Shown here in pieces: positions 1 through 56,040 of a stretch of DNA of 64,000 bases. Numbering within the stretch: position 1 is the first letter of the stretch; every line of letters begins with the position of its first letter. The notes below the pieces were generated by a model, which was given only the letters and a program-made list of their open reading frames with translations, made no database searches and was not told where the DNA came from. Source of the DNA: an uncultured Chitinophagales bacterium (GTDB lineage Bacteria; Bacteroidota; Bacteroidia; Chitinophagales; CAZNGA01); NCBI GenBank assembly GCA_964572485.1, contig CAZNGA010000005.1, positions 8,400 through 72,399 on the forward strand, in the 5' to 3' direction. The translations under genes and the position numbers were made by a program.

Positions 1-302
1 AGCTCGTATGGATTTTTATTGAAATCATAGACCTCTGTTTTGTAGTAGATATATGTGCCTCCCAGTCCAACCGCATATTCATCAGTGACCCAATACCCTA
101 GCAATGGTGAAATGTCAATAAAAGTAGTACTACCAAACCACAATCCAAAGTTGCCACCGGTAAAGATCCTATCCTTTGAAAATCCCTTTTTAGATTCTTG
201 ATCACCCAACGATTGAGCTTGCAGGTTGCCTCCTAAAACAAATAGGAGAACAACTACCGATAAACTCAGAATCCGGGTACTCGCTTTTTGGGGGAATGTC
301 AT
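1..302 (-). CDS. Partial (runs off window edge) secreted outer-membrane beta-barrel-like protein
   Basis: Not in ORF track. Manual minus-strand translation from ATG at 302 stays open to base 1: MTFPQKASTRILSLSVVVLLFVLGGNLQAQ (signal peptide) then ...KDRIFTGGNFGLWFGSTTFIDISPLLGYWVTDEYAVGLGGTYIYY, an alternating beta-strand pattern typical of Bacteroidota OMPs. Confidence 0.75.
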   Translation of the reverse strand, partial: MTFPQKASTRILSLSVVVLLFVLGGNLQAQSLGDQESKKGFSKDRIFTGGNFGLWFGSTTFIDISPLLGYWVTDEYAVGLGGTYIYYKTEVYDFNKNPYE

Positions 303-356: not shown

Positions 357-1844
357 CTAATTAAACTTATAGCACGGTGTACCTTTCCCTTTTGGCATTC
401 CCTTAGCTTTCCCTTTGCGACCCTTTCCTTCCGTGAAAAAAATGCGTAATGAAGCATAGATGTCAAAACCTGTGAACTTATGCTTAAAGAATAAACTGCT
501 AAAATTATCAGAACCAACGGTTAAATAACCAAGTCGTGCGGCCAATCCAAACCGCGGACGGGTGTACTCGTATAACAACAATGGTAAAGCTAACTCTAGC
601 CATTTCATTTCAAAACGAGGGGTAACTGATATCAAATTCCCCCTGTCAATACCAGGCCCTCTCTTGGGGATTCTTTGTACCCATGTCATATTAATAAAGA
701 TATAATCCCGGACTCTATAATCACCTTGCACGCTGATGGCTGAAGGTAATCCCATCCTAAAACTATTACCCCCCTTCGAGGAGGTCATATCATTATAAAT
801 TTTTACACTTATAACAGAATCAGCTTGTGAGATATTTTTAAATTTTGCAGTATCAACTCTTATCCATGTCCTTTGAGAATTATTCAAATTAAAACTTGAA
901 GCATCTGACTTAATATTAATACTCCCAATATCCATTAATGATGCCCCTATCCTCCACTTGTATTTGTCAGGGTCATCAACCATCTGTTCATAAGCCCCTC
1001 CTATTGAGATCCCATAACCTTGGCCCTTATTAATGCTGCCATTATCAAGTGTAGATGGATCTGTATATCCATAATCAAGGTCAACATTATATATAGATGC
1101 ATCTAATCGTTCAAATAAGATGGGATCTTGCTCAGTGATCTCATATTCAAGAATCCCATTATTAAAATAAGCGCCAAGATGACCATTTATATACTTTATT
1201 GTTGCCCCTCCCTTAATAAGATAGTCTTGATTTCTGGTAAAGACAGTAGCATAGGTCAACCCATATTCACTCCAACTTAATATATTGATCCTGAACTTAG
1301 GGGCAGAGAACTTCTCGAAGTGCTGATTACGATAGGGTAATCCTTCAAATGCATATTTGGCAATACTATGATGAACACCCACAATGCTGATATTTGTACG
1401 AACAGCAGTATGCAATGCAAAGCTGTGATCTTTGATTCTTATCATAAAAGATGGGCCCATCGCATGAGTGTTGAAATAAACATTCTTTCTAACAGATGAG
1501 TTTGTATATCCATCTTTTAATACAAAATCAGACATCTTTCCATCCTCATTTATATTCTTATTAGTATAGGCAAGCAAATCTTCTTCATTTTCAAAACGAC
1601 TCTTCAAAGACATCAAACTGTTATTGGGAATGTATAAATAGTTGTTCTCCAGAAAAAGGTCCGCAGTGATCAAATTGAACTCAAATACGAAGGGGGAGTT
1701 AGCAATGGAACTTGAATTGATCATGATACCGGCAGTTCCGGCGAAATTACTATTCACAATTCCAAGCATCTCTTGAGAAAAACCCAGATGTGTGAAAGCA
1801 ATAAATGTGATAGCAGCAATTAATGCTTTCAGCATAATTTTCAA
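357..1844 (-). CDS. DUF5723-like outer membrane protein
   Basis: 495 aa, signal peptide; motifs SNFAG..G...NSSSIA and RMGLPSAISVQGDY; C-terminal RLGYLTVGSDN...GFDIYASLR resemble DUF5723 (family recall). Confidence 0.65.
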   Translation of the reverse strand: MKIMLKALIAAITFIAFTHLGFSQEMLGIVNSNFAGTAGIMINSSSIANSPFVFEFNLITADLFLENNYLYIPNNSLMSLKSRFENEEDLLAYTNKNINEDGKMSDFVLKDGYTNSSVRKNVYFNTHAMGPSFMIRIKDHSFALHTAVRTNISIVGVHHSIAKYAFEGLPYRNQHFEKFSAPKFRINILSWSEYGLTYATVFTRNQDYLIKGGATIKYINGHLGAYFNNGILEYEITEQDPILFERLDASIYNVDLDYGYTDPSTLDNGSINKGQGYGISIGGAYEQMVDDPDKYKWRIGASLMDIGSINIKSDASSFNLNNSQRTWIRVDTAKFKNISQADSVISVKIYNDMTSSKGGNSFRMGLPSAISVQGDYRVRDYIFINMTWVQRIPKRGPGIDRGNLISVTPRFEMKWLELALPLLLYEYTRPRFGLAARLGYLTVGSDNFSSLFFKHKFTGFDIYASLRIFFTEGKGRKGKAKGMPKGKGTPCYKFN

Positions 1845-8066: not shown

Positions 8067-8125
8067 TTGTCCCCCAACTTTTTTCTCCTCGATCAAACAC
8101 TCACCCACATTCACACCTAACTTAG

Positions 8126-8217
8126 GTGTAACTTTTTAGCGAAAACTGTTTCTTTTTATTCGTTCAAAAAATCGTAATTTGTTGTGGGGGGATGTCCCGC
8201 TCCCCCAAGGGGAAAAA
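8126..8217 (+). repeat. 92-bp dispersed intergenic element, copy 1 (copy 2 at 30155-30246)
   Basis: Ungapped alignment with 30155-30246, 81/92 identical by manual count. 44-bp identical core GTAATTTGTTGTGGGGGGATGTCCCGCTCCCCCAAGGGGAAAAA at 8174-8217. Confidence 0.9.
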
Positions 8218-8425
8218 TAATAATTATTTGGCAACAGCCTTTCCTTTCTTCTCCTTTCCTCTTCTTTTTGACTTCCTTACTCATACACCCTCCTTGTCCT
8301 GTCCCTCAATTAGGAAATAATCAGCTCATATAATATTAGTCCTTTCTTGTGGCCAAAAATATATAGGGTCCAACGTAACTTCCACTAAAATATATCGTAA
8401 TTTGTTGAAAATAATTCCTGAAAGA

Positions 8426-10189
8426 ATGGAGATCAAATGTCTTTTTGATATTCCTGATTATCAATTAAATCATTTTGCTCAACCAGAAGCACTTGTAGCA
8501 AAAGAGAATGGGCAATGGAAGAAATATAGTACCCAGGATTTCATTGACCAAGCTAATAAAGTAAGTTCAGCCCTGATAAAACTTGGAATCCAAAAAGAGG
8601 ATAAAATTGCCATCATTTCAAATAATAGGCCGGAATGGAATTTTGTAGATATTGGAATCCTCCAAATTGGTGCTATCAATGTGCCAATTTACCCTACCAT
8701 AAGCGAGCAAGAGTTTAAGTTTATATTCAACCATGCCAATGTCAAGATCGTATTTGTCTCTGACCAGGAATTGTACCAGAAGGTCCAAAACATAAAAAGT
8801 GAGGTGCCTTCTCTAACAGCGATATATACATTTGATAAAATTGAAGGCGCAGATCATTGGACAAAATTCTTGAATGTTGCTGATGAGATCAACCACAAAG
8901 AAATCGACAATTCAAGAAAGTCTATCAAACCGGATGATCTGGCAACGATCATCTATACTTCTGGAACTACAGGAGAACCAAAAGGTGTAATGCTCTCCCA
9001 CAACAATATCATTAGTAATGTCGTGGCATGTACTCCCTTGCTTCCTATAGACAAACAACACCGTGTTCTCAGCTTTCTGCCACTCAACCATGTCTTTGAA
9101 AGAATGCTCACCTATCTTTATATGTCCCAAGGGGTTTCGATATATTATGCTGAATCAATGGAAACAATTGGTGAAAACCTAAAAGATGTAAAGCCTCACC
9201 TCTTTTCAACGGTTCCACGACTTCTGGAAAAGGTATATGACAAAATTCTAGCCAAAGGATTGGACCTGCATGGTATTAAGAAAACCTTGTTCTTCTGGGC
9301 ACTGAACATGGGATTGGAATACGAATATAATGGGAAAAATGGCTGGTGGTATGAGACAAAATTAAAAATAGCCAACAAACTGATATTTAGCAAATGGAGG
9401 GAAGCCCTTGGAGGGAACGTAATTACCATTGTATCAGGAAGTGCCGCATTGCAGCCTCGATTGGCTAGGGTCTTCACAGCTGGGAATATACATGTCCTTG
9501 AAGGATATGGCCTTACAGAAACATCTCCAGTAATATCGGTCAATAGGTATGAAGAGTATGACCGGCACTTTGGTACTGTGGGCCCCATCATAGATGATAT
9601 AGAAGTTGCCATTGCTCAAGATGGGGAAATACTCTGTAAAGGACCAAACATCATGCTAGGATATTATAAAAGACAAGATTTGACGGACGAAGTGATCGAC
9701 AAGGAGGGATGGTTCCATACAGGAGATATTGGCACCTTTATTGATGAGAAGTACCTGAAGATCACCGATAGGAAAAAGGAGATATTTAAAACTTCTGGCG
9801 GAAAATATGTAGCTCCCCAGTTGGTTGAAAACAAATTGAAAGAATCCTACTTCGTTGAGCAGTTGATCGTAGTGGGAGAATATAAGAAATTCGTTAGTGC
9901 CCTGATCATGCCAGCATTCGACAATTTAAAAGAATGGTGTGAAAAGAAGGGGATAAAAGTAAGTTCCCATGCTGAAATGGTGGGACATCCCACAGTCATT
10001 GAACGTTATGAAAAGGTGATGGAAAAGTACAACCCTAATTTCAACCGTGTAGAACAGATCAAGAAATTCAAATTGGTGGCTGATGAATGGTCTGTGAATA
10101 GTGGTGAGCTTACCCCTACCTTGAAACTGAAGAGGAAGATCATTCTTGAAAAATACAAAGAAGAAATAGATAAGATCTATGAAGATTAA
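8426..10189 (+). CDS. fadD: Long-chain fatty acid--CoA ligase
   Basis: IYTSGTTGEPKG, EGYGLTETSP, WFHTGDIG, DRKKEIFKTSGGKYVAP, ELTPTLKLKR. ATG 8426 preferred over TTG 8402. Confidence 0.92.
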   Translation: MEIKCLFDIPDYQLNHFAQPEALVAKENGQWKKYSTQDFIDQANKVSSALIKLGIQKEDKIAIISNNRPEWNFVDIGILQIGAINVPIYPTISEQEFKFIFNHANVKIVFVSDQELYQKVQNIKSEVPSLTAIYTFDKIEGADHWTKFLNVADEINHKEIDNSRKSIKPDDLATIIYTSGTTGEPKGVMLSHNNIISNVVACTPLLPIDKQHRVLSFLPLNHVFERMLTYLYMSQGVSIYYAESMETIGENLKDVKPHLFSTVPRLLEKVYDKILAKGLDLHGIKKTLFFWALNMGLEYEYNGKNGWWYETKLKIANKLIFSKWREALGGNVITIVSGSAALQPRLARVFTAGNIHVLEGYGLTETSPVISVNRYEEYDRHFGTVGPIIDDIEVAIAQDGEILCKGPNIMLGYYKRQDLTDEVIDKEGWFHTGDIGTFIDEKYLKITDRKKEIFKTSGGKYVAPQLVENKLKESYFVEQLIVVGEYKKFVSALIMPAFDNLKEWCEKKGIKVSSHAEMVGHPTVIERYEKVMEKYNPNFNRVEQIKKFKLVADEWSVNSGELTPTLKLKRKIILEKYKEEIDKIYED

Positions 10190-10212
10190 ATTGCAATAGT
10201 AATAACCCTATT

Positions 10213-12615
10213 ATGAATCACCATATAAAACAAGTAGCAATATTGGGATCCGGAATTATGGGATCACGCATTGCCTGTCACTTTGCAGGAATTGGTGTTA
10301 AAGTGCTCCTCCTTGATATATCTCCCAATGAACTCAACGATCTCGAAAAGAAAAAAGGGCATAAGATCTCTGATCCAATAGTAAAAAACAGGATCGTAAA
10401 TGATGCGCTAGCGAATTGCTTAAGCTCTAACCCGTCCCCTATTTACAAGTCTGGCTATGCTTCAAGGATAACTACCGGGAATTTTGAAGATAATATGCAG
10501 GACATTAAAGATGCTGACTGGATCATTGAAGCGGTTATAGAAAATCTGGAAATCAAAATCTCCATATTCGAAAAAGTCGATCAATTCAGGAAAGAAAACA
10601 GTTTTATCACCACTAATACCTCCGGAATTCCGGTGAATATGATGTTGAAAGGGAGGTCTGAAAACTTCCAGACTCATTTTTGTGGGACCCATTTTTTCAA
10701 CCCTCCCCGCTATCTCCAATTGTTGGAAATAATACCTTCAGAAAAAACCTCTCCAGAAACCCTGGAATTCCTGACCCATTATGGAGATCTTTTTCTTGGA
10801 AAAACTCCTGTTCAATGTAAAGATACACCCGCCTTTATCGCAAACAGGGTAGGTATGTTTTCCATTATGGCCATCTTCAACCTAATGAAGGAAATGGAAC
10901 TTACTGTTGAGGAAATAGATACCCTCACTGGTCCGGTAAGCGGTAAACCCAAGTCTGCCACATTTAGAACTAGCGATATTGTCGGGATGGATACTTTAGT
11001 AAAAGTGGCCAACGACATCTATGAAAACTGTCCGGATGACGAGCAAAGGGATATGTTCAAAGTGCCAGACTTTGCCAATAAACTGGTTGAAAATAAATGG
11101 CTTGGAGATAAAACAGGACAAGGATTCTATAAAAAGATAAAAAAAGATGGGAAAAGCGAGATCCTCGCATTGGACATCAAAACCTTTGAATACCAGCCCA
11201 AACAAAAAGCGAAATTCGCTACCATTGGTACTGCCAAGGGTATTGATGACCTAAAAGAACGATTGGCCGTACTATCCAAAGGAAAAGATAAAGCAGGTGA
11301 TTTCTATAGAAAGTTCTTAGGTCTTCTGTTTTTATATGTATCTCACCGGATACCTGAAATAGCGGATGAAGTGTATAAGATAGATGATGCAATGCGCTCT
11401 GGATTTGCATGGGAAGTGGGGCCATTTGAGCACTGGGATATTGTCGGCGTGAAAAAATCGCTGGAGATGATAGCTGCAAGCGGCCATAAACCTGCGAAAT
11501 GGGTAGAAGACATGGTGAAGGCAGGTTGCAAATCCTTCTATCAGATAAAAGATGGCAAGACACAATATTATGATCCTGGCTCTACTTCATACAAGGACAT
11601 CCCAGGGAAAGAGGAATTTGTACTTCTGGACAACTTAAAATCTAATAAAGTAGTTTGGCAAAATTCAGGGACCTCTGTAATTGATATTGGTGATGGAGTG
11701 ATTAACCTTGAATTCCATACCAAAATGAATACCATTGGAGGTGAAGTACTTGAGGGCATTAACAAGGCTATAGAAATAGCAGAATGTGATTTTAAAGGGT
11801 TGGTGGTAGGAAATGAAGGACAGAATTTCTCAGCCGGGGCGAATATCGGGATGATCTTCATGCTTGCTGCTGATCAGGAATATGATGAAATTGATGTGGC
11901 CATCAGGATGTTCCAAAATGCAATGATGCGCATCAAATACTCCCCTATTCCTGTGGTGGCAGCACCACATGGTTTAACCCTGGGTGGAGGCTGTGAGTTA
12001 TGCCTGCATGCTGACAAAGTTCAGGCAGCGGCTGAAACATATATTGGCCTTGTTGAAGTAGGGGTTGGATTGATACCCGCAGGCGGGGGCACAAAGGAAT
12101 TGGTGGTCCGTGCTTCGGATAACTTCTATGAAGGGGATACCAAATTACCAAATCTACAAAACTATCTACTTACCATTGCAACTGCAAAAGTAGCCACTTC
12201 AGCCCATGAGGCTTTTGACTTTAATATCTTTAAAAAAGGAAGGGATAGTATAACTATAAATAAAGATCGGCTGATCGCTACGGCAAAACAGGCAGTAATA
12301 GAAATGGCTGATAAAGGATACTCTCAACCTGCACCTAGAAATGATATTAAAGTGCTGGGGCAAGAGGCCCTGGGGGCATTTTTGGCTGGTGCCAACGGTT
12401 TTTTTATGGCAAATTACATGTCAGAACATGACAAATTAATAACTGAGAAGCTGGCCTACGTAATGAGTGGAGGTGATCTATCATCACCTACTCAAGTATC
12501 GGAACAATATTTATTGGATCTGGAAAGAGAAGCATTCTTGTCCTTAACTGGTGAAAAGAAGACATTGGAAAGGATACAAAGTATATTGACAACTGGAAAA
12601 CCATTGAGAAATTAA
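10213..12615 (+). CDS. fadN: 3-hydroxyacyl-CoA dehydrogenase/enoyl-CoA hydratase (FadN type)
   Basis: GSGIMG Rossmann motif, TNTSGIP, HFFNPPRYL, C-terminal crotonase domain (FSAGAN, LGGGCE, YIGLVEVGVGLIPAGGG). Confidence 0.92.
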   Translation: MNHHIKQVAILGSGIMGSRIACHFAGIGVKVLLLDISPNELNDLEKKKGHKISDPIVKNRIVNDALANCLSSNPSPIYKSGYASRITTGNFEDNMQDIKDADWIIEAVIENLEIKISIFEKVDQFRKENSFITTNTSGIPVNMMLKGRSENFQTHFCGTHFFNPPRYLQLLEIIPSEKTSPETLEFLTHYGDLFLGKTPVQCKDTPAFIANRVGMFSIMAIFNLMKEMELTVEEIDTLTGPVSGKPKSATFRTSDIVGMDTLVKVANDIYENCPDDEQRDMFKVPDFANKLVENKWLGDKTGQGFYKKIKKDGKSEILALDIKTFEYQPKQKAKFATIGTAKGIDDLKERLAVLSKGKDKAGDFYRKFLGLLFLYVSHRIPEIADEVYKIDDAMRSGFAWEVGPFEHWDIVGVKKSLEMIAASGHKPAKWVEDMVKAGCKSFYQIKDGKTQYYDPGSTSYKDIPGKEEFVLLDNLKSNKVVWQNSGTSVIDIGDGVINLEFHTKMNTIGGEVLEGINKAIEIAECDFKGLVVGNEGQNFSAGANIGMIFMLAADQEYDEIDVAIRMFQNAMMRIKYSPIPVVAAPHGLTLGGGCELCLHADKVQAAAETYIGLVEVGVGLIPAGGGTKELVVRASDNFYEGDTKLPNLQNYLLTIATAKVATSAHEAFDFNIFKKGRDSITINKDRLIATAKQAVIEMADKGYSQPAPRNDIKVLGQEALGAFLAGANGFFMANYMSEHDKLITEKLAYVMSGGDLSSPTQVSEQYLLDLEREAFLSLTGEKKTLERIQSILTTGKPLRN

Positions 12616-12637
12616 TTAGATAATTTACATTATAATA

Positions 12638-13810
12638 ATGGAAGCATATATAATAGCCGGATTTAGAACTGCAGTTGGGAAAGCCCTTCGAGGGGGATTC
12701 CGATTTACCCGTTCAGATGACCTGGCGGTGAACGTAATTCAACATTTAGTGGAATCAGTTCCTCAACTCGAAAAAGAAAAAGTGGATGATGTGATAGTTG
12801 GGAACGCTGTCCCTGAAGCAGAGCAAGGGTTACAGATAGGACGGATGATCTCTCTAATGGCCCTTGGGCAAGAAATGCCGGGTATGACGATCAACCGCTA
12901 TTGTGCTTCAGGAGTAGAGGCTATCGCAGTTGCTTCCGCAAAGATCAGGTCTTCGATGGCCGATTGTATTATTGCAGGGGGAACCGAATCAATGTCATTA
13001 GTTCCAACCGCAGGATGGAAAACTGCGCCCAACTATAATGTAGCCAAAAAGTTCCCTAACTACTATTTGAGCATGGGTTTAACTGCTGAAGAGGTGGCCA
13101 AAGATTATAAGATCTCAAGAGAAGATCAGGATGAATTTGCCTACCACTCGCACATGAAAGCTTTAAATGCTTTGGAAAAAGGGTACTTCAAAGATCAGAT
13201 ACTGCCCATTGAAGTTGAAGAGATCTTCATGGATCAAGGCAAAAAGAGTAAAAGATCATTTACAGTTGACACTGATGAGGGCCCCAGAGCCGATACGACT
13301 ATTGAAGCACTTGCAAAATTAAAGCCTGTCTTCGCGGCAAATGGTACAGTTACTGCTGGAAATTCTTCACAGATGTCAGATGGTGCTGCTTTTGTAATTG
13401 TTATGTCAGAGAAAATGGTAAAGGAACTCAAGATCAAGCCTTTGGCTAGATTAATTGTATCGGAAATAGCAGGTGTAGATCCTAGAATAATGGGTATAGG
13501 GCCCATATCAGCTGTCCCTCTCGCCCTTAAAAAAGCAGGATTGAAGCTTACGGATATTGACCTTATTGAATTGAATGAAGCATTTGCTTCACAATCATTG
13601 GCAGTGATCAGGGAATTGAATATGGATCCTGAAAAGGTAAATGTAAATGGTGGCGCTATAGCTTTAGGCCATCCCTTAGGATGTACCGGCTGCAAATTAA
13701 CAGTGCAACTAATTAATGAGCTGAGACGTAGAAACAAAAAATATGGAATGGTAACTGCCTGTGTTGGAGGTGGGCAAGGTGTTGCAGGGATCATAGAGCT
13801 GATAAATTAA
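12638..13810 (+). CDS. fadA: Acetyl-CoA C-acyltransferase (thiolase)
   Basis: NRYCASG (Cys), ELNEAFA, GGAIALGHPLG (His), TACVGGGQG. Confidence 0.95.
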   Translation: MEAYIIAGFRTAVGKALRGGFRFTRSDDLAVNVIQHLVESVPQLEKEKVDDVIVGNAVPEAEQGLQIGRMISLMALGQEMPGMTINRYCASGVEAIAVASAKIRSSMADCIIAGGTESMSLVPTAGWKTAPNYNVAKKFPNYYLSMGLTAEEVAKDYKISREDQDEFAYHSHMKALNALEKGYFKDQILPIEVEEIFMDQGKKSKRSFTVDTDEGPRADTTIEALAKLKPVFAANGTVTAGNSSQMSDGAAFVIVMSEKMVKELKIKPLARLIVSEIAGVDPRIMGIGPISAVPLALKKAGLKLTDIDLIELNEAFASQSLAVIRELNMDPEKVNVNGGAIALGHPLGCTGCKLTVQLINELRRRNKKYGMVTACVGGGQGVAGIIELIN

Positions 13811-13827
13811 AACTTAAATCAAATTTC

Positions 13828-15615
13828 ATGGAATCAAATGATAGTGGTATTCCGAAGGGTGGTGAATTTTTGATCAAAGAATCTGACCCCAAATCGGTGT
13901 ATATCCCTGAGGAAGTCAATGAAGAAGAGAAAATGATCGTTGATATGTGTGGTCAATTTCTTGATGCAGAAGTGTATCCCCACCTTGATAAGATCGACAA
14001 GCAAGAAAAAGGCCTGATGGTCTCATTAATGGAAAAAGCAGGGGAAATAGGATTGTTGGGTATTTCTGTACCAGAAGAATTTGGTGGATTTGGCAAAGAT
14101 TTTAACACCGGGACCATGGTAGCAGAAGCTTTAGGTGGGGGGCACTCATTTCCCGTTTCATATATGACCCATTGCGGAATCGGTACGTTACCCATCTTAT
14201 ATTTCGGTACCGAAGACCAAAAGAAGAAATACCTTCCTAAACTTGCATCCGGTGAATATAAAGCCAGCTATTGCCTCACGGAACCCAATTCAGGCTCTGA
14301 TGCCCTTGCCTCTACCACGATGGCAGCACCCACAAAGGATGGTAAGCATTACATACTCACAGGTCAAAAAATATGGATTACCAATGCCGGATTTGCAGAT
14401 ATCTTTATTGTATTTGCTCAGGTAGATGGTGACAAATTTACTGGATTCATCCTGGAACGTGAGATGGAAGGATTAACTGTAGGCGAAGAGGAGCATAAGA
14501 TGGGCATTAAAGGCTCTTCAACATGTGCTGTGTTCCTTGAAGATTGTAAAGTCCCTGCCGAAAACGTCTTAGGAGAGATCGGTAAAGGTCACCTGATTGC
14601 CTTTAATATTCTAAATATCGGTCGATTCAAACTCTGTGCAGCAGCTTTGGGTGGTGCAAAAAGAGCATCTTCATTATCTATTTCATATGCGAATGAGCGA
14701 AAACAATTTAAACAAGCGATCTCAGGATTTGGAGCGATCAAGCATAAACTTGCAGAACAGGCAATCAAAATATTTGCCATGGAATCTGCATTGTACCGCA
14801 CAAGTAATTATATAAACACTAAACGTAAAGATATACTGGATGAAGGGAAAAGCTATGGAGATGCCTTACTCGGCGGAGCCAAGGAATATGCTGTAGAATG
14901 TGCGATCCTGAAGGTCCTTGGTTCAGAGAATTTAGATTGGATCATCGACGAGGGAGTTCAGGTGTATGGGGGATATGGCTATTCAGAAGAATATCCCATG
15001 GCGCGGGCATACAGAGATGCAAGGATTAACCGAATCTTTGAAGGAACAAATGAAATTAATCGGCTTCTGATCGTGGACATGCTACTAAAAAGAGCTATGA
15101 AAGGGGAACTGGACCTGCTGGGAGGGGCTAAAGCTATACAAACTGAGTTAATGTCTATCCCTGATATGAGTGCAAGTACTGATGGGCCCTTCGATACACA
15201 GATAAAAATCGTTCAAAACCTTAAGAAAGCTGTTTTACTCACTGCTGGGGCTGCCGCGCAGAAATTCATGCAAAAGCTGAGCGGAGAGCAGGAGATCATA
15301 ACAGATATCGCTGATATGATCATAGCTACTTATGCCAGTGAATCTGCTTTATTAAGGTGCCAAAAACTGGTAGCCCAAAAATCAGAAAAAGAATGCGCTT
15401 TATATATTGACATGATGCAAGTATTCATTAATGATGCAAGCGCCCAGGTGAATGTGTCCGGCAGAAATGCTATCGCTTCATTTGCTGAAGGCGATGAGAT
15501 GCGCATGATGCTAATGGGCATAAAACGATTTACTAAAGCAGACCCCATCAATACCAAAGATGCCCGCCGAAGGGTTGCTGACAAGCTAATTGGTGAGAAC
15601 ATGTATTGTTTTTAG
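13828..15615 (+). CDS. fadE: Acyl-CoA dehydrogenase (long form)
   Basis: YCLTEPNSGSDA, KIWITNAG, KMGIKGSST, LNIGRFKL, QVYGGYGY, RIFEGTNEINR. Confidence 0.92.
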   Translation: MESNDSGIPKGGEFLIKESDPKSVYIPEEVNEEEKMIVDMCGQFLDAEVYPHLDKIDKQEKGLMVSLMEKAGEIGLLGISVPEEFGGFGKDFNTGTMVAEALGGGHSFPVSYMTHCGIGTLPILYFGTEDQKKKYLPKLASGEYKASYCLTEPNSGSDALASTTMAAPTKDGKHYILTGQKIWITNAGFADIFIVFAQVDGDKFTGFILEREMEGLTVGEEEHKMGIKGSSTCAVFLEDCKVPAENVLGEIGKGHLIAFNILNIGRFKLCAAALGGAKRASSLSISYANERKQFKQAISGFGAIKHKLAEQAIKIFAMESALYRTSNYINTKRKDILDEGKSYGDALLGGAKEYAVECAILKVLGSENLDWIIDEGVQVYGGYGYSEEYPMARAYRDARINRIFEGTNEINRLLIVDMLLKRAMKGELDLLGGAKAIQTELMSIPDMSASTDGPFDTQIKIVQNLKKAVLLTAGAAAQKFMQKLSGEQEIITDIADMIIATYASESALLRCQKLVAQKSEKECALYIDMMQVFINDASAQVNVSGRNAIASFAEGDEMRMMLMGIKRFTKADPINTKDARRRVADKLIGENMYCF

Positions 15616-23930: not shown

Positions 23931-23941
23931 GTTTATGACCT

Positions 23942-26188
23942 TTATTTTATCTTATAGCGAAATCCAAAATACACATTCCTACCAAAGATCGGCCCCCAGA
24001 TCAAAGAGCTGTCAAAATATTTGCTAAAGGGTAGTTCACTGGACAATATAGGATCTTTCTGTACATAACCCAACAGGTTCTCTACACCACCATATAATTC
24101 AAACTTCTCCTTCCAGGTCTTGCTGATATGCCCATTCATTAGCACAAATTGAGGTGACTTTTCAGGCAATTGATATTCCACCTGATTGCTTCCTGTAAAA
24201 GGGATCCTCTTTTCACCCTGCCAGTTGACCGTGTAATCAAACTTCCAATGATCATTTGTCTCATAACCAATGTTCAGAAAAGAACGATGCGTTGCCACAA
24301 AAGGTTTTTGCATTAATTTTCCATTATAAGTGGTTTGCACCTCATACCAGCGATAAGCCAGCCGCACATTCAGTTTCTCGATCACTTCATAATCCACCTG
24401 TAACTGAAAGCTGTTGGAGTACGAAACACCTTGTAAATTGTAGAAGTAAACTTCCTGTGGGCTTTGGTCCAGGTCCATTACGGCCTGATTCTCAAAATCT
24501 GTTCGGTAATAATCAAAGCTGATGCTACCCTTCCTGTGATCGACCCTAAAATACTGCGTCAGATCCAATCCATAGTTCCAGGCTACTTCAGGATTCAATC
24601 CGTAAGGCCTGTCACCGCCATCTCCTAATATGATGACCCGCCTGGAGCTTGCCAACAGGCCACTGTTCTCAGAAAGGATATTGGCAGTGCGCTGACCACG
24701 TCCCCCGGAAGTTCTTAATATGGTTTTTTCTGTGATGGCATATCGAATATGCAACCTTGGTGTTACAAACGATCCAAAATGATTATGATGGTCTGCTCTT
24801 ACACCAGCAACTGCATTGAACTTTTCCAAATAGGAGTAAGTATACTCAAAATACACCCCAGGAACCATTTCTGTACGATCATAAGTTGTAAAATTCAGTC
24901 TTTCATTATATTCATCATATTGAAAAGTAGCTCCTATCCAAAACTTATAATCCTCTGATCCGAGATGGCTTTTATACATAAAATTAGCGTACCCGCTATG
25001 TTGGGTAGCATAATAATTATTTGCACCGAAGAGGTTGTCCTGGCTGTGGCCTGTACCAGAAAGCTACAATCCAACCGTTTTCCAAGGCATATCTTCAAAT
25101 ACTCTTCCTATCTTAGCCCACCCTTCAATCCTTTGCATATTCATTTGCATTCCCCAGATACCTTGGTTAGTGTTATTGATATTAGGTTCAAAGCCCATCT
25201 GCCCCCCTTCATTATCAATATAGGTCCCTTTCACCCCAATCTTGGCACGCAGACCTTTTGCACCAATATATTTCCACCTGTTCAACCCAATGAATTCACT
25301 GCTCAATGGTTTATCAATAAAATTATCTCCATTTCTGTCCCATTTCGTTGTATTGTTCCTGCCATGTAATAACAGTGCTGTTGACAATTTTTTATTCTTA
25401 AATCTATGGACCAAATTTGCATTTGCCTCCCTCCTGCCACCTTCATTACCAAATCCGTTCAAATACAACCGATCAGCGTCTTCCGGCTTTCGTAACTCCA
25501 CATTTATTTGTCCGGCGATGCTTTCATATCCATTAACTACTGATCCAGGTCCTTTGACCAACTGTATGCCTTCAACCCAAGTCCCGGGAATAAATGAAAG
25601 TCCATAGATGGCAGACAATCCTCTTACATCCACCATTTTCTCTCTCGTTATCTGTGTATATGGCCCTGCAAGCCCAAGCATTTGTATTTGACGAGTATCT
25701 GTAACAGCATCAGTAAAGGAGACATCTACACTTGGATTGGTTTCAAAACTTTCACTCAGATTGCAGCAAGCGGCTTTTTGCAACTCCTTCTCACCAATAT
25801 TCTCAACCTTACTGGGATTTATATTAGAGATCTCCGTTGACTTCTTTTTTTCAATTATTTCAACCTTATCCAGGTTTATGATCGCTTTCAATGCCACTGT
25901 TAAATAATCCTTCACCCCTATCTCAATAGTATCATTCTGATATCCAATATAACTCACAACGAGCTTATGGGTTAAATTAATCCATTCAATCCTGAATTCC
26001 CCATTCTCATCGGTGACAACGCCAATAGTAGTACCCAACCAGTATACATTGACAGCAAAAAGTGGGACAGTTTTACCTTCATCTGTCACTTCAAACACCT
26101 TCCCCTCAAGGTACTCTTTAGCATTCTGACCGCTCAAGTATCCCGGGAGAACAAGAAGAAGGAATAATATTACTTTCAATAGCTTCAT
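23942..26188 (-). pseudogene. TonB-dependent receptor interrupted by one in-frame TAG (25064-25066)
   Basis: Track ORFs 25064-26212 and 23942-24979 share a frame (84 nt between them) and the bridge is open: TVGL*LSGTGHSQDNLFGANNYYATQHSGYANFMYK. N-part has CarboxypepD-like and plug motifs (AACCNLSESFETNP); C-part is barrel strands ending GRNVYFGFRYKIK. Confidence 0.85.
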
Positions 26189-26379
26189 AAAACAATAATG
26201 CAAAATACGCAAATTATTGCATCGTCGTCGGAAGCTTTGTCAGTAAACCCTTTCTGCTTAATACTTGAGTCGTTACTCAACTATTGAAAAATTACGGACA
26301 TATTAAATATGTTGACATAAGTAACAGGAAATACTGCTATATTTGAGTTCATAAGTAAAGAGAAAATCAGTAGAAGGTT

Positions 26380-27271: not shown

Positions 27272-28522
27272 TCATGCATGTTCTTCCCAAACAATTCCAA
27301 GGTTGATGATCGTTTCTGCGGATTTTGCGAGGTCCTGAGCTGAGATCCATTCCATTTTAGAATGAAAAGCATGCTCACCGGCAAAAATATTGGGAGTTGG
27401 CAATCCCATAAAGGAGAGTTTTGAACCATCGGTCCCACCACGAACACTCTTCATAAAGTAATCAATCCCTGCTCTTTTCATGGCTTCCTTGGCATGCTCA
27501 ATGACTTCAGGGTGTTTATCCAGTATTATCTTCATATTTCGATACTGTTCTTCAACCTCAAAATCAACGGATGACCCTTTATAATTATTTGCCACCTTTT
27601 TAGCTACATCTTCCAAATAGGATTCCAATTTCTTTAATCCCTCTTCAGTAAAATCACGAATAATAAATTTTATCACTACTTTTTCTACCATGCCATTGAT
27701 GGTGAGGGGATGGATAAATCCTTCCCTACCTTCAGTGGTTTCAGGTGAAAGTTTATCTTTAGGAAGTTGATCAATGATCTCAGAGGCCATCTTTATGGCG
27801 CTCTCCAGTTTCCCCTTTGCAAATCCGGGATGAGCGCTTACACCATGAACAGTAATGGTGGCCCCATCTGCAGAAAAGGTTTCATCCTCAAGGCATCCCA
27901 GGGAATCGCCATCAATGGTATAACCAAATTCAGCACCCAGCTTTTCAATGTCTACCTTATCAGCACCTCTTCCGATCTCTTCATCGGGAGTAAATAAGAT
28001 CCTGATTGTACCATGCTTCACTTCGGGATGGGTTATATAAAAGTTAGTGGCATCCATGATCGCCGCGATCCCTGCCTTATTATCAGCTCCTAAAAGTGTA
28101 GTCCCATCAGCGGTGATCACATCATTCCCTTTTTGATTCAAAAGATCAGGGTGGTCACCTGTTTTTATAATCTGGGCTGTATCATTAGGTAATACAATAT
28201 CAGTACCATCATAGTTCTCATGGATCACTGGATTCACATTTGCGCCACTACAGTCAGGAGAGGTATCCATATGAGCGCAAACACAGATCACAGGTACCTT
28301 TTTATCCGAGTTTCCTTCTATAGTGGCATATACATAACCATGCTCATCCATGTGTGCATCAGAAACACCCATTTCCTGTAATTCATTAACCAAATAAGCT
28401 CCCAGATCCTTTTGCTTATCTGTTGAGGGACAAGTATCAGAATCAGGGTCAGATTGGGTATCAAATTTTACATATTTCAAAAACCTTTCTTTGGCAGTGT
28501 GTTCAATTGTGAATGAGCTCAT
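27272..28522 (-). CDS. pepT: Peptidase T (M20B tripeptidase)
   Basis: AHMDTSPD, LLGADNKAG, FTPDEEIGRG, HPGFAKG, VRGGTDG, PTPNIFAGEHAFH. Confidence 0.96.
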   Translation of the reverse strand: MSSFTIEHTAKERFLKYVKFDTQSDPDSDTCPSTDKQKDLGAYLVNELQEMGVSDAHMDEHGYVYATIEGNSDKKVPVICVCAHMDTSPDCSGANVNPVIHENYDGTDIVLPNDTAQIIKTGDHPDLLNQKGNDVITADGTTLLGADNKAGIAAIMDATNFYITHPEVKHGTIRILFTPDEEIGRGADKVDIEKLGAEFGYTIDGDSLGCLEDETFSADGATITVHGVSAHPGFAKGKLESAIKMASEIIDQLPKDKLSPETTEGREGFIHPLTINGMVEKVVIKFIIRDFTEEGLKKLESYLEDVAKKVANNYKGSSVDFEVEEQYRNMKIILDKHPEVIEHAKEAMKRAGIDYFMKSVRGGTDGSKLSFMGLPTPNIFAGEHAFHSKMEWISAQDLAKSAETIINLGIVWEEHA

Positions 28523-28664
28523 AATCTCTAAGTTTAGTAAATAAAAATGAAGGTTAAAGTTCAGAAAAAAAGGGGGGAAATAGAAGCAAATGAAGACTCA
28601 ATTTATTGAAACTTAAATATGTGAAAATCGTTAAATATCGAATTATCAATGATCAAAACCTATT

Positions 28665-30092
28665 ATGAGTGTATTTAAACAATGGATCACCCTATTACTA
28701 TGCACTTTTCTCCTTACAATAGCTGCCAGTGCCCAGTTGACCAAATTTCAAAAATGGAATGAGCCGTCCTATTTTAGGGGATTTAACATTAAGCTATGGG
28801 ATAATGTAAATAATCGTACCGTCAACCAACAAGATTACTATGATCTAAAAGCAACAGGGGCAAATCTTGCTATTATGCAGATTTGGGGCAGTCGGTCAGA
28901 TACCGCTCCATACGCACCAACTCTATGGTGGACAAATGGGATTGACACTTCCTATTATATCAGCAAGTTGGATAGTATGGTCAAATATGCCCAAAATGCA
29001 GGGATCTACTATGTGATCTGTATTCGCCAAGGGCCCGGCAGAAGGGATGTAGGTTGGTCCAATCCCCTTCCTAACACACTATGGCAAGACACTGTAGAAC
29101 AAAATGAATATGCAGGGATGCTAAAAGACATGGCCCAAAGATACTTGCCGGATAGTTTATTTGTAGGCATTGATATGATCCAGGAGCCTAATCCCGGAAA
29201 TCCTTCGTGGTCAGGTATAGAAGTAAACCGTTATGAAGATTCCATGCAGTTCTATAATATTGATATCAATGGTTTATATACAAAGTGCATCGACTCGATC
29301 AGAACAGTAGCCCCTGGCCTGCCTCTTTTGGTACAGGGTGTACACTGGTCAAATGCAGAATACTTTGGGATGACAACTAAGCAAGCAGACAATAAGATAG
29401 TGTATAATGTTCACACGTATATTCCAAGGCCATTTGCTGCCCATGATAGTTTGAATGACGTGAATATGCATTATCCGGATACCTTTTGGAATAATCGGTT
29501 GGAGAAATATGGGTACATGGATAAAGAATACATCCGTGATACATTGCTATTTGTTGTAGACTCCTTTAAAAATGCCAACAATGTGCCAATCCTGATAGGT
29601 GAATTTGGCCTTGCCATACCTCAAAATGACGGGATCACCTACTTGATGGATATGGCTGACATATTTTGTGAAGAGGGTTATCACTATGCTTATTGGATAT
29701 TTGGCGGGGAGCCCACTTACAATTACCAATACTTCGACGATTCAATTATGGGGGGAGCTACTGCCTATATGGACTCTGTAATTGAGTCATTTAACTGTAG
29801 AGATTCAATGATAAGCAGTATTGAGTATGTATCACATTCAAATATTTCTATTTATCCAAATCCGGCAGGTGAATATTTCAATATTATTTTAGATAAACCA
29901 TTTAAAGGAACCTTAAGGGTAAAGATCTATGACATTTTAGGAAAAGAAATAGGTATGATAATGGAGCCAACGATTTCTGAAAGAAATAAAGAGATCAGTG
30001 TGAATATATCACAACTTTCACCTGGAATTTATTTTGTGTCATGTGAAAATAATAGATCTGCTTTCAGAGAAACGTTGGTAGTTATCAAGTAG
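28665..30092 (+). CDS. T9SS-secreted glycoside hydrolase family 5-like protein
   Basis: Signal peptide; RGFN strand 1; IDMIQEP (E174 acid/base); NVHTYIP; ILIGEFG (E313 nucleophile); C-terminal IYPNPA...LSPGIYFV T9SS domain. Confidence 0.78.
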   Translation: MSVFKQWITLLLCTFLLTIAASAQLTKFQKWNEPSYFRGFNIKLWDNVNNRTVNQQDYYDLKATGANLAIMQIWGSRSDTAPYAPTLWWTNGIDTSYYISKLDSMVKYAQNAGIYYVICIRQGPGRRDVGWSNPLPNTLWQDTVEQNEYAGMLKDMAQRYLPDSLFVGIDMIQEPNPGNPSWSGIEVNRYEDSMQFYNIDINGLYTKCIDSIRTVAPGLPLLVQGVHWSNAEYFGMTTKQADNKIVYNVHTYIPRPFAAHDSLNDVNMHYPDTFWNNRLEKYGYMDKEYIRDTLLFVVDSFKNANNVPILIGEFGLAIPQNDGITYLMDMADIFCEEGYHYAYWIFGGEPTYNYQYFDDSIMGGATAYMDSVIESFNCRDSMISSIEYVSHSNISIYPNPAGEYFNIILDKPFKGTLRVKIYDILGKEIGMIMEPTISERNKEISVNISQLSPGIYFVSCENNRSAFRETLVVIK

Positions 30093-30154
30093 CCCAAAGA
30101 GTTTCTTCCCTTCTTTTCCTTCTTCTCTTTCCTTCCTTGACTATTTGCGCTTGC

Positions 30155-30246
30155 GTGTAACTAAATTGCGAAAACTGTTTCTTTCTCTATGCTCAAAAAA
30201 CAGTAATTTGTTGTGGGGGGATGTCCCGCTCCCCCAAGGGGAAAAA
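30155..30246 (+). repeat. 92-bp dispersed intergenic element, copy 2
   Basis: See 8126-8217. Identical core at 30203-30246; this copy lies between convergent genes. Confidence 0.9.
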
Positions 30247-30295
30247 ATCAAAAATTGATCTCATTTGAAAATTGTAAAGGAACGATAAAATTTTT

Positions 30296-31207
30296 CTAGC
30301 GCCTTTTCAACTCATTTGCATATCTGACACCTAGATCCTCTTTATTATTTTTGGCCCATTCCGAAAATAGTGTGATACCTGTAGGCTTTGATTCAGTGCA
30401 AAGCAGATCAGACATTAGTCCATCGATCTCCTCCCTGGTTATCACAACGTCTCCGACAAAAGCACCTAATAATCTACCGCACCAGTAACCCAGTCCCGGA
30501 TTGATGTGAGTGATCATCCTCTTTTTACCCAATATTTCCATTATTGTAAGGACCAAATCCCTATAACTGTAGGTTTCGGGTCCAATTGCATCTATGATCA
30601 CATTCTTATCATTCGATGCCCATTCAACTGCCAATTTTGCCATATCCTCCACAAAAATGGGTTGTAAACGATATTCACCCTTACCAAAAATGCCAAAGGT
30701 GGGTAGATGCCTGATCATCCATGCAATATTATTGATCAGGATATCCTCCTTTCCAAAAAGTACAGCCGGCCTTAAAATTGCATATGAAAGACCTAATTGC
30801 TTCAATGCTTTCTCCAATTTTGCCTTCCCGGAAAAGTACTCTAACCTTGAATCTATTGAGGGATTCGTAATGCTGACATGCACAATCCTTTTAACACCTG
30901 CTTTCTGCGCAGCCCTAAATAATTTCAAGGTATTCTCAACAGCAATGGAGTGCTTAAATCTTTTGTGGTTAAATCTTACCCAATAGGTGTTATATAAGAC
31001 ATCTACATTCTGTAAAGAATCTCTCAATTTATCCTGATCGTCAAAATGAAAAGGATGTACCTCAATTTGACCTTCAAATGGATTATTTCTATGTAAAGAA
31101 TTCGTAAGTGTACCAACATGATACCCCTCGGCTAATAATTGGTGTGCAATATACTTACCCAAATATCCAAAAGCTCCGGTAACGACATGAATACTATTTC
31201 CTCTCAT
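30296..31207 (-). CDS. NAD(P)-binding atypical SDR, NDUFA9/NmrA-like
   Basis: VTGAFGYLG, YFSGKAKLE (YxxxK), ILRPAVLFG, LQPIFVED. Confidence 0.85.
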   Translation of the reverse strand: MRGNSIHVVTGAFGYLGKYIAHQLLAEGYHVGTLTNSLHRNNPFEGQIEVHPFHFDDQDKLRDSLQNVDVLYNTYWVRFNHKRFKHSIAVENTLKLFRAAQKAGVKRIVHVSITNPSIDSRLEYFSGKAKLEKALKQLGLSYAILRPAVLFGKEDILINNIAWMIRHLPTFGIFGKGEYRLQPIFVEDMAKLAVEWASNDKNVIIDAIGPETYSYRDLVLTIMEILGKKRMITHINPGLGYWCGRLLGAFVGDVVITREEIDGLMSDLLCTESKPTGITLFSEWAKNNKEDLGVRYANELKRR

Positions 31208-55522: not shown

Positions 55523-55541
55523 TTTTACATAAAATAGAGTT

Positions 55542-55997: not shown

Positions 55998-56040
55998 GGC
56001 TTTTATTTTTGCAATTTACTAACACTAAAGAGACGATCAC

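What the first reader, a model, noticed from the sequence alone, without database searches (positions are those of the whole stretch)
8126..8217. 92-bp intergenic element duplicated 22 kb away with an invariant hairpin core: candidate new sRNA or repeat family
Seen: 8126-8217 and 30155-30246 align without gaps at 81/92, with all 11 mismatches in the first 48 nt and a 44-nt identical 3' core. The core starts with a -7-like box (GTAATTTG) and folds as GGGGGA-TGTCCCGC-TCCCCC followed by AAGGGGAAAAA. Both copies follow the stop of a plus-strand secreted-protein gene in the same orientation. Copy 2 faces a convergent gene, so it cannot be the leader of an annotated CDS. No transposase, terminal inverted repeats or target duplication are visible. 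Inference: a promoter plus short structured RNA, or a REP/MITE-like family. Each copy also opens a small ORF starting MSRSPKGK (42 aa at 8192-8320; 15 aa at 30221-30268), but the G-rich context is poor for Bacteroidota initiation.
Basis: partly seen in the sequence, partly recalled or inferred. Interest (0 to 1): 0.68.

Follow-up and report, generated by a model that had tools for sequence, protein, structure and literature searches.

The report
Modular intergenic repeat with promoter-like core
The two 92-97 bp copies are real and belong to a small, lineage-specific family of modular intergenic repeats in an uncultured Bacteroidota bacterium; each unit looks like a terminator followed by a promoter and a G/C-rich stem-loop, which is a new family of an ordinary kind of bacterial repeat, not a new kind of system.

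Summary
Window 8126-8217 and 30155-30246 match at 81/92, and the last 44 nt are identical.

It is not a two-copy oddity. An independent assembly of the same microbial-mat metagenome carries at least four more full units, two diverged units and two hairpin-only fragments on three further contigs, some in tandem with a 176-nt period.

The family is a mosaic of four modules:
- A: about 70 nt, promoter-like.
- B: about 27 nt, G/C hairpins followed by an A-run.
- C: a CT-rich tract.
- D: a CACACCC-rich tract.

All copies are intergenic. No transposase, terminal inverted repeats or target duplication were found. There is no match in Rfam, plasmid records or phage records, and two exact-pattern scans of 185,579 species genomes found nothing real.

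Three features bear on function:
- The core box TAATTTGT exactly fits the experimentally supported flavobacterial box TAnnTTGY, which predicts transcription starts at 8187 and 30216.
- Two diverged copies keep the box spacing although the spacer sequence has changed.
- The 5' edge carries a co-varying hairpin followed by a T-run, which looks like a terminator.

The G/C hairpins show no covariation and fold no better than shuffled sequence.

The most likely reading is a BOX- or BrickBuilt-like repeat that acts as a portable terminator/promoter cassette. A multi-copy sRNA or a tiny peptide is not excluded. No transcript data exist.

The parts
8067..8120 (+). Leader of the copy-1 array. It contains a possible decayed B fragment (TGTCCCCCAAC, 8069-8079), a short CT tract (8080-8091) and a CA-rich 'D' tract (CAAACACTCACCCACATTCACAC).
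   Evidence: By eye against the L011/L012 arrays, which have the order C-D-(A)-B. The D tract is complementary to TGTGGGGGGATGT (I2). Tentative.
8113..8137 (+). Terminator-like hairpin ACACCTA-ACT-TAGGTGT followed by AACTTTTT, at the 5' edge of unit 1.
   Evidence: Flagged by the terminator scan. A hairpin in the same register is present in the other copies with different, complementary arms: total stem length 37 against a null of 21.2 +/- 5.9, P = 0.003.
8121..8217 (+). Repeat unit copy 1 (modules A + B, 97 nt).
   Evidence: nhmmer E = 5e-32.
8141..8155 (+). Invariant block GAAAACTGTTTCTTT, a candidate upstream (-33 region) promoter element.
   Evidence: Identical in all 6 full copies and largely kept in 2 diverged copies at the same distance (21-22 nt) from the box.
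8175..8182 (+). TAATTTGT, an exact match to the flavobacterial SM5 promoter box TAnnTTGY (-12 to -5). Predicted transcription start at G 8187.
   Evidence: Sequence; motif definition from PMC9723704; invariant in 6 copies.
8186..8213 (+). Module B: G6 run, AUG, CCCG, C5 run and G4 run. It can form GUGGGG/UCCCGC plus UCCCC-CAA-GGGGA, or alternatively GGGGGA/UCCCCC, and is followed by an A-run.
   Evidence: Fold (not better than shuffles). Stems are invariant and loops vary between copies.
8192..8320 (+). Small ORF MSRSPKGK... (42 aa). Its tail is read from the CT tract.
   Evidence: Tail length and sequence are not conserved between copies (9-60 aa).
8237..8282 (+). CT-rich tract (module C) after unit 1, possibly followed by a decayed second A module (about 8283-8352).
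   Evidence: It is one of only four such tracts in the 64 kb, and two of them flank the copies. The same order B-spacer-C is seen in L010, L011 and L012. The collinear alignment to the L010 inter-unit is marginal, p about 0.05.
8394..8407 (+). Second copy of ATCGTAATTTGTTG, 18 nt upstream of the fadD ATG (8426). It is a candidate proximal fadD promoter of the same box type.
30099..30146 (+). CT-rich tract (module C) preceding unit 2.
30145..30160 (+). Weak left-edge hairpin TTGCGC-TTGC-GTGTAA. No T-run follows in this copy.
30150..30246 (+). Repeat unit copy 2 (modules A + B, 97 nt).
30204..30211 (+). TAATTTGT box of copy 2. Predicted start at G 30216, pointing into the 3' end of the convergent epimerase gene.
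30215..30242 (+). Module B of copy 2 (G/C hairpins).

Best explanation
The finding is one unit of a lineage-specific, non-coding, modular intergenic repeat family. Its modules are A (about 70 nt), B (about 27 nt), C (a CT-rich, (CTTT)n-like tract) and D (a CACACCC-rich tract). Units occur singly or in short head-to-tail arrays with a period of about 176 nt, at several intergenic sites of one uncultured Bacteroidota genome.

Shown: multiplicity, modular structure, strictly intergenic location, and stronger conservation of the core than of the left part.

Inferred: each full unit works as a transcription-punctuation cassette with three parts.
1. A short hairpin plus T-run at its 5' edge ends the transcript of the co-directional upstream gene.
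2. About 50 nt further on, a promoter fires. It consists of the conserved GAAAACTGTTTCTTT block, 19 nt (22 nt counted from the end of GAAAACTGTTTC), and the SM5-type box TAATTTGT.
3. The new transcript starts in the G run (8187/30216) and begins with a G/C-rich stem-loop, which could protect its 5' end.

Depending on the site, this transcript would run into a downstream gene (fadD operon; the LamG/T9SS gene in L010) or antisense into a convergent gene (the epimerase at copy 2).

Spread is most likely by tandem duplication and recombination, or by a transposase acting in trans that was not seen.
For: Family and modularity:
- A HMMER search with the translated element found two spurious ORFs. 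Their contigs, plus a third, carry more units: L012 313-219, L010 10160-10066 and 9984-9891 (tandem), and L011 1637-1545, all with E < 1e-25.
- B-only fragments lie at L011 1431-1404 and L012 105-84. Diverged units lie at L010 8617-8503 and 9816-9702.
- The GC content of these contigs (0.38-0.39) equals that of the window.
- In the raw-run unitigs of a microbial-mat metagenome, the element is covered at summed depth 20-37 against 2.3 for the flanks. A tandem junction and the variant tail of L010 copy 4 are recovered independently.

Constraint:
- 17 of 48 columns vary in the left part against 4 of 40 in the core (p = 0.006).

Promoter:
- TAATTTGT is an exact TAnnTTGY. This box was defined from mapped transcription starts and confirmed by mutagenesis in Flavobacterium psychrophilum (PMC9723704).
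- Two diverged copies keep the arrangement GAAAACTGTTT(C) - 21/22 nt - TAA(A/T)TT - 4-6 nt - G run, although the spacer sequence has changed.
- The same 14-mer sits 18 nt upstream of the fadD start codon, a normal promoter-to-ATG distance.

Terminator:
- The left-edge hairpin has different but complementary arms in different copies (P = 0.003). It is followed by T5-6 in 5 of 8 copies.
- In 4 of 5 loci the array starts just after a co-directional gene.
Against: - There are no transcript data of any kind. No RNA run holds the sequence.
- TAnnTTGY is a low-information motif: 78 matches in the window and only 1.8-fold enrichment in intergenic DNA.
- The candidate -33 region is not a clean TTTG.
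- The G/C hairpins show no compensatory change and fold no better than shuffles.
- In 3 of 5 loci the putative promoter points at a convergent gene, so it serves no mRNA there.
- Copies 2 and 4 lack the T-run.
- B-only fragments have no promoter, so module B may have a role of its own.
- High identity of the core could reflect recent spread or gene conversion instead of selection.
- All evidence comes from one community.
Confidence: 0.5

Rival explanations
1. A multi-copy small RNA gene family. Each unit would be an independent sRNA gene whose product begins GGGGGAUGUCCCGCUCCCCCAAGGGGAAAAA and continues into an AU-rich and then CU-rich tail. It would act through the G/C stem-loop or through the CU-rich tract, by base pairing or protein binding.
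For: The promoter evidence is the same as for the best explanation. The most conserved part of the unit lies just downstream of the predicted start. The only substitutions in the stems keep pairing (G-C to G-U), and the variation in hairpin 2 is confined to the loop. CT tracts follow module B in 5 of 6 full units. Copies that face convergent genes cannot be mRNA leaders.
Against: There is no conserved terminator or 3' end. The sequence after module B is unrelated between copies. There are no compensatory changes. Folding energy equals that of shuffles. There is no Rfam match even at E < 10. No relative was found outside one metagenome. CT tracts vary in length like microsatellites.
Confidence: 0.2
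2. A family of tiny, nearly leaderless genes. The AUG at 8192/30221 lies 5 nt after the predicted start and opens MSRSPKGK, followed by a hydrophobic tail read from the CT tract. This resembles the repeated small hydrophobic toxins of type I toxin-antitoxin loci, or a regulatory leader peptide.
For: The ATG and the first 5 codons are identical in all 6 full units and in the B-only copy of L011. The two single-base differences in this stretch (CGC>CGT, CCC>CCT) are synonymous. In 4 of 6 units the ORF continues for 26-60 aa with an F/L/S/P-rich tail.
Against: ORF length is 9, 15, 26, 35, 42 and 60 aa, and the tails are unrelated. Any frame through a CT tract is free of stop codons and hydrophobic, so the tails carry no information. 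Two units stop after 9 and 15 aa. The gene caller of the metagenome called none of them. Two synonymous changes are not significant. A protein search in another + frame (frame a, not the MSRSPKGK frame) found nothing; the MSRSPKGK frame itself was not searched.
Confidence: 0.07
3. A selfish or neutral repeat with no transcriptional role. It could be a MITE-like or IS200/IS605-end-like (PATE/REP-like) element moved in trans by a transposase that recognises the hairpins. In that case the promoter and terminator resemblances are incidental.
For: The right boundary is sharp, 11 nt after the G/C hairpin. There are no terminal inverted repeats and no target duplication, as in IS200/IS605-type ends (the comparison rests on my knowledge of that family). 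Copies are dispersed at unrelated loci. The element is absent upstream of fadD in the two closest relatives. Copies are nearly identical, which suggests recent spread.
Against: No transposase, RAYT or integrase is present in the 64-kb window or on the three other contigs. The left boundary is ragged and modular instead of a fixed end. Tandem arrays with microsatellite-like spacers fit duplication and slippage better than transposition. Spacing is conserved in the diverged copies.
Confidence: 0.18
4. Direct repeats left by site-specific integration (attL/attR) of a 22-kb island, or a neutral local duplication or assembly artefact.
For: There are two direct copies 22,029 bp apart, with an identical core and an abrupt loss of similarity on one side.
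Against: The 22 kb between them holds only housekeeping genes (the fadD-fadB-fadA-fadE operon, acetyl-CoA synthetase, a TonB receptor, an M20 peptidase) and no integrase. The fad operon is syntenic in a relative. Further copies exist at unrelated loci. Both copies are reproduced in a second assembly.
Confidence: 0.02

Closest known systems
BrickBuilt MITE-like element of Porphyromonas gingivalis (Klein et al. 2015, PMC4596501)
   Same: It is also in Bacteroidota and built from modules: a leader, a tandemly repeated middle and a tail. It is always intergenic, has a low copy number (19 per genome) and is restricted to one species. Segments carry promoter activity (abstract read).
   Different: BrickBuilt has small inverted-repeat ends and a spacer-less 23-nt minisatellite. 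The present family has no inverted ends, a 97-nt unique unit, and CT- and CA-rich tracts as the variable middle. Sequence similarity to BrickBuilt was not tested.
BOX elements of Streptococcus pneumoniae and BIME/REP mosaics of enterobacteria (from my own knowledge)
   Same: Both are mosaics of a few short modules in variable number and order. They are confined to intergenic DNA, often just after genes, and are able to form stem-loops. They can alter expression or stability of neighbouring transcripts, and no transposase is encoded in the element.
   Different: There is no sequence relation. REPs are 20-40-nt palindromes, often in inverted pairs, with hundreds of copies and a RAYT gene. Here all modules lie in one orientation, the copy number is roughly ten, and no RAYT was seen.
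SM5-type promoters (TAnnTTGY at -12 to -5) of Flavobacterium psychrophilum (Guerin et al. 2021, PMC9723704)
   Same: TAATTTGT fits the box exactly. It has TA and TTG one base closer than in the sigma-A consensus TAnnTTTG, G at -6 and a pyrimidine at -5. A purine start lies 5 nt downstream.
   Different: The motif was defined in another class of Bacteroidota. Which sigma factor reads it is unknown. Its use in this organism is untested, and the motif alone is common by chance.
Correia elements of Neisseria and other promoter-carrying MITEs (from my own knowledge; review PMC10969869 was listed but not read)
   Same: These are short non-autonomous intergenic repeats that bring promoters, terminators or RNA-processing sites to neighbouring genes.
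   Different: Correia elements have 26-nt terminal inverted repeats and a TA target duplication. Neither is present here.
Repeated type I toxin loci (Ibs/Sib, Ldr/Rdl) first noticed as intergenic repeats in E. coli (from my own knowledge)
   Same: Intergenic direct or tandem repeats, each with its own promoter and a very small hydrophobic ORF.
   Different: Those peptides are conserved in length and sequence and have an antisense RNA partner. Here the ORF tails are not conserved.

Membership tests
MITE (miniature inverted-repeat transposable element) | Terminal inverted repeats at both ends | tested here: not met
   No inverted pair joins the two ends of either unit. Only short internal or flanking matches of 8-17 nt at 76-100% were found. 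There was none of at least 25 nt in the window-wide scan.
MITE (miniature inverted-repeat transposable element) | Target-site duplication flanking each copy | tested here: not met
   The flanks of 6 full copies share no direct repeat across the unit (alignment, sequences). The left boundary is ragged.
MITE (miniature inverted-repeat transposable element) | Related autonomous IS with a transposase in the same genome | not testable with these tools
   No transposase is present in the window or on L010-L012, but the rest of the genome is not available.
REP/BIME with RAYT | Short (20-40 nt) imperfect palindrome, commonly in inverted pairs | tested here: not met
   Module B is a short G/C palindrome-like stretch, but all copies at a locus lie in the same orientation.
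REP/BIME with RAYT | Cognate RAYT (Y1 transposase-like) gene | not testable with these tools
   None is present in about 90 kb of available sequence (Pfam scans; gene lists). The whole genome is not available.
Any Rfam RNA family | Covariance-model score at or above the gathering threshold | tested here: not met
   The only hit in the window is RNase P at 55539-56004. At E up to 10 there are only chance-level hits below 16 bits on both element regions.
Structured sRNA | Base pairs supported by compensatory substitutions | tested here: not met
   0 of 15 (+ strand) and 0 of 18 (- strand) predicted pairs show a double change among 6 copies. The copies are too similar for a strong test.
Structured sRNA | A discrete transcript | not testable with these tools
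   No RNA run holds the sequence. Only one DNA run does.
Bacteroidota SM5-type promoter | TAnnTTGY box | tested here: met
   TAATTTGT at 8175-8182 and 30204-30211, invariant in 6 copies. Motif definition from PMC9723704.
Bacteroidota SM5-type promoter | Mapped transcription start 5 nt downstream of the box, and activity lost on mutating TA or TTG | not testable with these tools
   Needs 5'-end mapping or a reporter assay.
Bacteroidota sigma-A promoter (TTTG -33 / TAnnTTTG -7) | TAnnTTTG box | tested here: not met
   TAATTTG has only one base between TA and TTTG. The regular-expression scan does not report it.
attL/attR of an integrated element | Integrase and mobile-element genes between the repeats | tested here: not met
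   Only metabolic and housekeeping genes lie in 8218-30149.
Diversity-generating retroelement (TR/VR pair) | Mismatches confined to adenines of one copy; VR inside a gene; RT nearby | tested here: not met
   The mismatches are of all kinds (A/G, G/C, T/A, T/C, C/A). Both copies are intergenic. There is no RT in the window.

The most novel reading that the evidence does not exclude
The units are active, self-contained transcription modules that the lineage has multiplied. Each launches, from an alternative (SM5-type) promoter, a short RNA that starts with an invariant G/C switch (the C run can pair with either G run) around a near-leaderless AUG. Its body is a hypervariable (CTTT)n/CA tract. 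This would be a repeat family that generates phase-variable small RNAs or small hydrophobic peptides and antisense transcripts at many loci.
Probability: 0.12. Interest if true: 0.6.

Novelty: new member of a known kind. Interest (0 to 1): 0.36.

Why it matters
Interspersed intergenic repeats that carry transcription signals can rewire the expression of neighbouring genes. They also break metagenome assemblies. Very few such repeats have been described in Bacteroidota; BrickBuilt in Porphyromonas is the main example.

This family would be a second, structurally different case, in an environmental lineage whose closest relatives found here share only 66-73% FadD protein identity. It would also extend the TAnnTTGY promoter type beyond Flavobacterium.

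In practical terms, it explains the odd, low-complexity YceI-fadD intergenic region. It also warns that ORFs called across it, such as P0121-P0123, are spurious.

Tried and rejected
- Exact 21-mer of the hairpin in 185,579 species genomes: no hit. In JGI metagenome contigs: one chance hit in a high-GC contig.
- Promoter-plus-G-run pattern in genomes: two chance hits inside a Muricauda/Flagellimonas coding gene.
- A 22-mer in viral contigs: none.
- BLASTN of the copy-1 array against plasmid and phage records: none.
- Orthologous fadD loci of the closest relatives (73% and 66% protein identity): no element.
- MarR-operator idea: the MarR near copy 2 is not the orthologue of the MarR inside the relative's fad operon (24% identity over 55 aa), and most copies have no regulator nearby. 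Dropped.
- Island/att idea: dropped because there is no integrase.
- DGR idea: dropped because of the mismatch spectrum.
- Minus-strand ORF FSPWGSGTSPHNKL...: it is open in all copies and was useful as a search handle. It has no conserved start, its N-termini are low-complexity read from the CT tract, and the variable DNA positions give mostly non-synonymous changes. It is not a gene.
- Plus-frame translation as a search handle: nothing.
- Extending the genome beyond the window through edge proteins: no record.
- A third copy inside the window by nhmmer with 2- and 8-sequence profiles: none.
- Read laying could not show the variant letters of the short unitigs.

Full report
**1. The observation**

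Window 8126-8217 and 30155-30246 align without gaps at 81/92, and every mismatch lies in the first 48 positions. Ungapped similarity extends to 97 nt (8121-8217 / 30150-30246, 87%). The 44-nt core occurs exactly twice on the + strand. None is expected by chance, and there is no third copy at up to 3 mismatches. The clustering of the mismatches is non-random (2e-4).

Copy 1 lies between a YceI-like gene and a fadD-fadB-fadA-fadE operon. Copy 2 lies between a GH5/T9SS gene and a convergent epimerase-MarR pair. Both copies are reproduced base for base on two contigs of JGI metagenome 3300002231, so they are not an artefact of the window's assembly. The predicted hairpins fold no better than shuffled sequence. 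Rfam gives nothing at the gathering threshold or at E < 10.

**2. Looking for relatives**

Exact-pattern scans found nothing real. This covers the hairpin 21-mer in the GTDB species genomes and JGI metagenome contigs, a 22-mer in viral contigs, and a promoter-plus-G-run pattern in the species genomes. Plasmid and phage records have no match.

The organism is isolated. The best FadD homologues are 73% and 66% identical, in Bacteroidota/Cytophagales MAGs. Their fadD upstream regions lack the element.

A clue came from the one public run that holds the organism, a 2011 microbial-mat metagenome. The single-copy flanks have a word depth of 2.3. The element is covered by several short variant unitigs with a summed depth of 20-37. 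They include a tandem junction and a variant tail.

I then used the one frame that is open through the whole element, on the minus strand, as a protein handle. HMMER against 1.84 billion representative proteins returned two small proteins at E = 1e-12. A profile search added a third. All three are spurious ORFs on further contigs of the same metagenome: L010, L011 and L012. Their GC content of 0.38-0.39 equals that of the window.

**3. Anatomy of the family**

nhmmer and inspection give the following copies.
- Six full units: the two in the window; L010 10160-10066 and 9984-9891, in tandem with a 176-nt period; L011 1637-1545; and L012 313-219.
- Two diverged units: L010 8617-8503 and 9816-9702.
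- Two fragments that hold only the 3' hairpin module: L011 1431-1404 and L012 105-84.

The family is a mosaic of four modules.
- A: (G)TGTAACT-5 nt-G(C/T)GAAAACTGTTTCTTT-9 nt-CAAAAAA-2 nt-GTAATTTGTTGTGGGGGG.
- B: GATGTCCCG(C/T)TCCCC-loop-GGGGA-A run.
- C: a CT-rich, partly (CTTT)n tract of 45-90 nt.
- D: a CACACCC-rich tract.

The orders seen are C-A-B (copy 2); (B')-C-D-A-B-C-(A') (copy 1); A-B-C-A-B-C-A' (L010); A-B-C-D-B (L011); and C-A-B-C-D-B-C-A... (L012).

CT tracts of this kind are rare. There are four in the 64-kb window, and two of them flank the copies. They always lie on the element's strand.

All copies are intergenic. In 4 of 5 loci the array starts right after a co-directional gene. 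In 3 of 5 loci the next gene is convergent.

No transposase, integrase or RAYT is encoded in the window or on the three contigs. There are no terminal inverted repeats and no target duplications.

**4. Signs of constraint**

Among the six full units, 17 of 48 columns vary in the left part against 4 of 40 in the core (p = 0.006). CCCG(C/T) varies, and the loop of the second hairpin is CAA, TAA, CATA or CAAA, while its stem UCCCC/GGGGA never changes.

No predicted pair on either strand shows a compensatory change. The copies are too alike for that to count strongly against structure.

The left edge is different. The 3' arm (..GTGT, just before AAC-T5) is part of the conserved unit. The 5' arm lies in otherwise unalignable DNA, yet it is complementary in each copy: ACACCTA/TAGGTGT, ACAC/GTGT and ACAAGCAGA/TTTGCTTGT. 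The summed stem length is 37 against 21.2 +/- 5.9 for shuffled upstream sequence (P = 0.003). With the T5-6 run that follows in 5 of 8 copies, this looks like a weak intrinsic terminator.

**5. The promoter question**

TAATTTG is not the sigma-A box TAnnTTTG, because it is one base short. It does exactly fit TAnnTTGY, the SM5 box of Flavobacterium psychrophilum. That box was defined from mapped 5' ends, occupies -12 to -5, and was supported by promoter mutagenesis (PMC9723704). This places the start at G 8187 / 30216, in the G run.

Three further points support a promoter.
- The invariant block GAAAACTGTTTCTTT covers the -33 region.
- The two diverged units keep GAAAACTGTTT(C) - 21/22 nt - TAA(A/T)TT - 4-6 nt - G run, although the spacer has diverged.
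- The same 14-mer ATCGTAATTTGTTG lies 18 nt upstream of the fadD ATG.

Against it, the box is a low-information motif: 78 matches in the window, and only 1.8-fold enrichment in intergenic DNA. There are also no RNA data.

**6. Coding potential**

The minus-strand frame is open in all copies. It has no conserved start, and it changes mostly non-synonymously at the variable sites. It is not a gene.

The plus-strand ORF MSRSPKGK starts 5 nt after the predicted transcription start. Its first codons are conserved, and the two differences in them are synonymous. However, its length is 9-60 aa, and its tails are simply the CT tract read in whatever frame follows. I keep it as a low-probability rival.

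**7. Verdict**

The finding is a real, multi-copy, lineage-specific modular intergenic repeat. In kind it is closest to BrickBuilt of Porphyromonas gingivalis (PMC4596501) and to BOX/BIME mosaics. It does not meet the definitions of MITE or REP.

The best-supported mechanism is a portable terminator-promoter cassette with a G/C-rich 5' stem-loop (confidence 0.5). A multi-copy sRNA (0.2), a purely selfish element (0.18) and a tiny peptide (0.07) remain open. The att/duplication/artefact readings are refuted.

It is a new family of a known kind and of modest interest. The link to the TAnnTTGY promoter type and the microsatellite-like tracts downstream of the putative start are the parts worth an experiment.

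Noticed in passing
window 55539-56004 (+): Bacterial RNase P RNA class A, full length, 241.9 bits. It is the only Rfam hit in the window.
   Followed up: no
window 23942-26212 (-): A TonB-dependent receptor is split into two ORFs: Plug/CarboxypepD_reg at 25064-26212 and the beta-barrel at 23942-24979. A translation across both contains a stop. The two JGI contigs that tile the window also meet near 23,940. This is either a pseudogene or a sequencing or assembly problem.
   Followed up: partly
L002 and L003 compared with window 8426-15615 and 27272-31207: In the JGI assembly many genes that are intact in the window are broken into pieces (fadD into 136 + 461 aa, fadB into three, the M20 peptidase and the epimerase into two). 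This is typical of homopolymer errors, so single-base length differences in G, C and A runs between element copies from that assembly should be treated with caution.
   Followed up: partly
L004 5408-5848 and 8401-8772 (closest relative, GCA_028278085.1): The relative's fad operon contains a MarR-family gene between fadD and fadB, and an Avd-like (23S_rRNA_IVP) gene between fadB and fadA. The window's operon has neither. The window's MarR (31261-31770) is not its orthologue.
   Followed up: partly
window 8097-8109 vs 8183-8195; L011 and L012 D tracts: The CA-rich D tract (CACCCACA / CACACCC repeats) is complementary to the TGTGGGGGG junction of modules A and B. A transcript or single strand containing both could therefore form a long-range stem. 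In the hairpin-only fragments, D directly replaces module A.
   Followed up: no
L011 about 1470-1530 (-) and L012 about 130-200 (-): The CT tracts include perfect (CTTT)n runs (about 8 units in L011). These are tetranucleotide repeats that could change length by slippage.
   Followed up: no
window 38072-38112 and 59265-59304: The only two other pyrimidine-rich tracts of this strength in the window. By coordinate, the first lies inside the ORF 37770-38486 (-), the S6-family gene by its position in L003, and the second overlaps the 3' end of the STAS-domain ORF 59262-59648 (-). They are not associated with the repeat.
   Followed up: no
P0121, P0122, P0123 (L010 10001-10192, L011 1461-1679, L012 18-384): Three 'proteins' in the public protein collections are translations of the minus strand of this repeat (FSPWGSGTSPHNKL plus E/K/R-rich low complexity from the CT tract). 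They are almost certainly not genes.
   Followed up: yes
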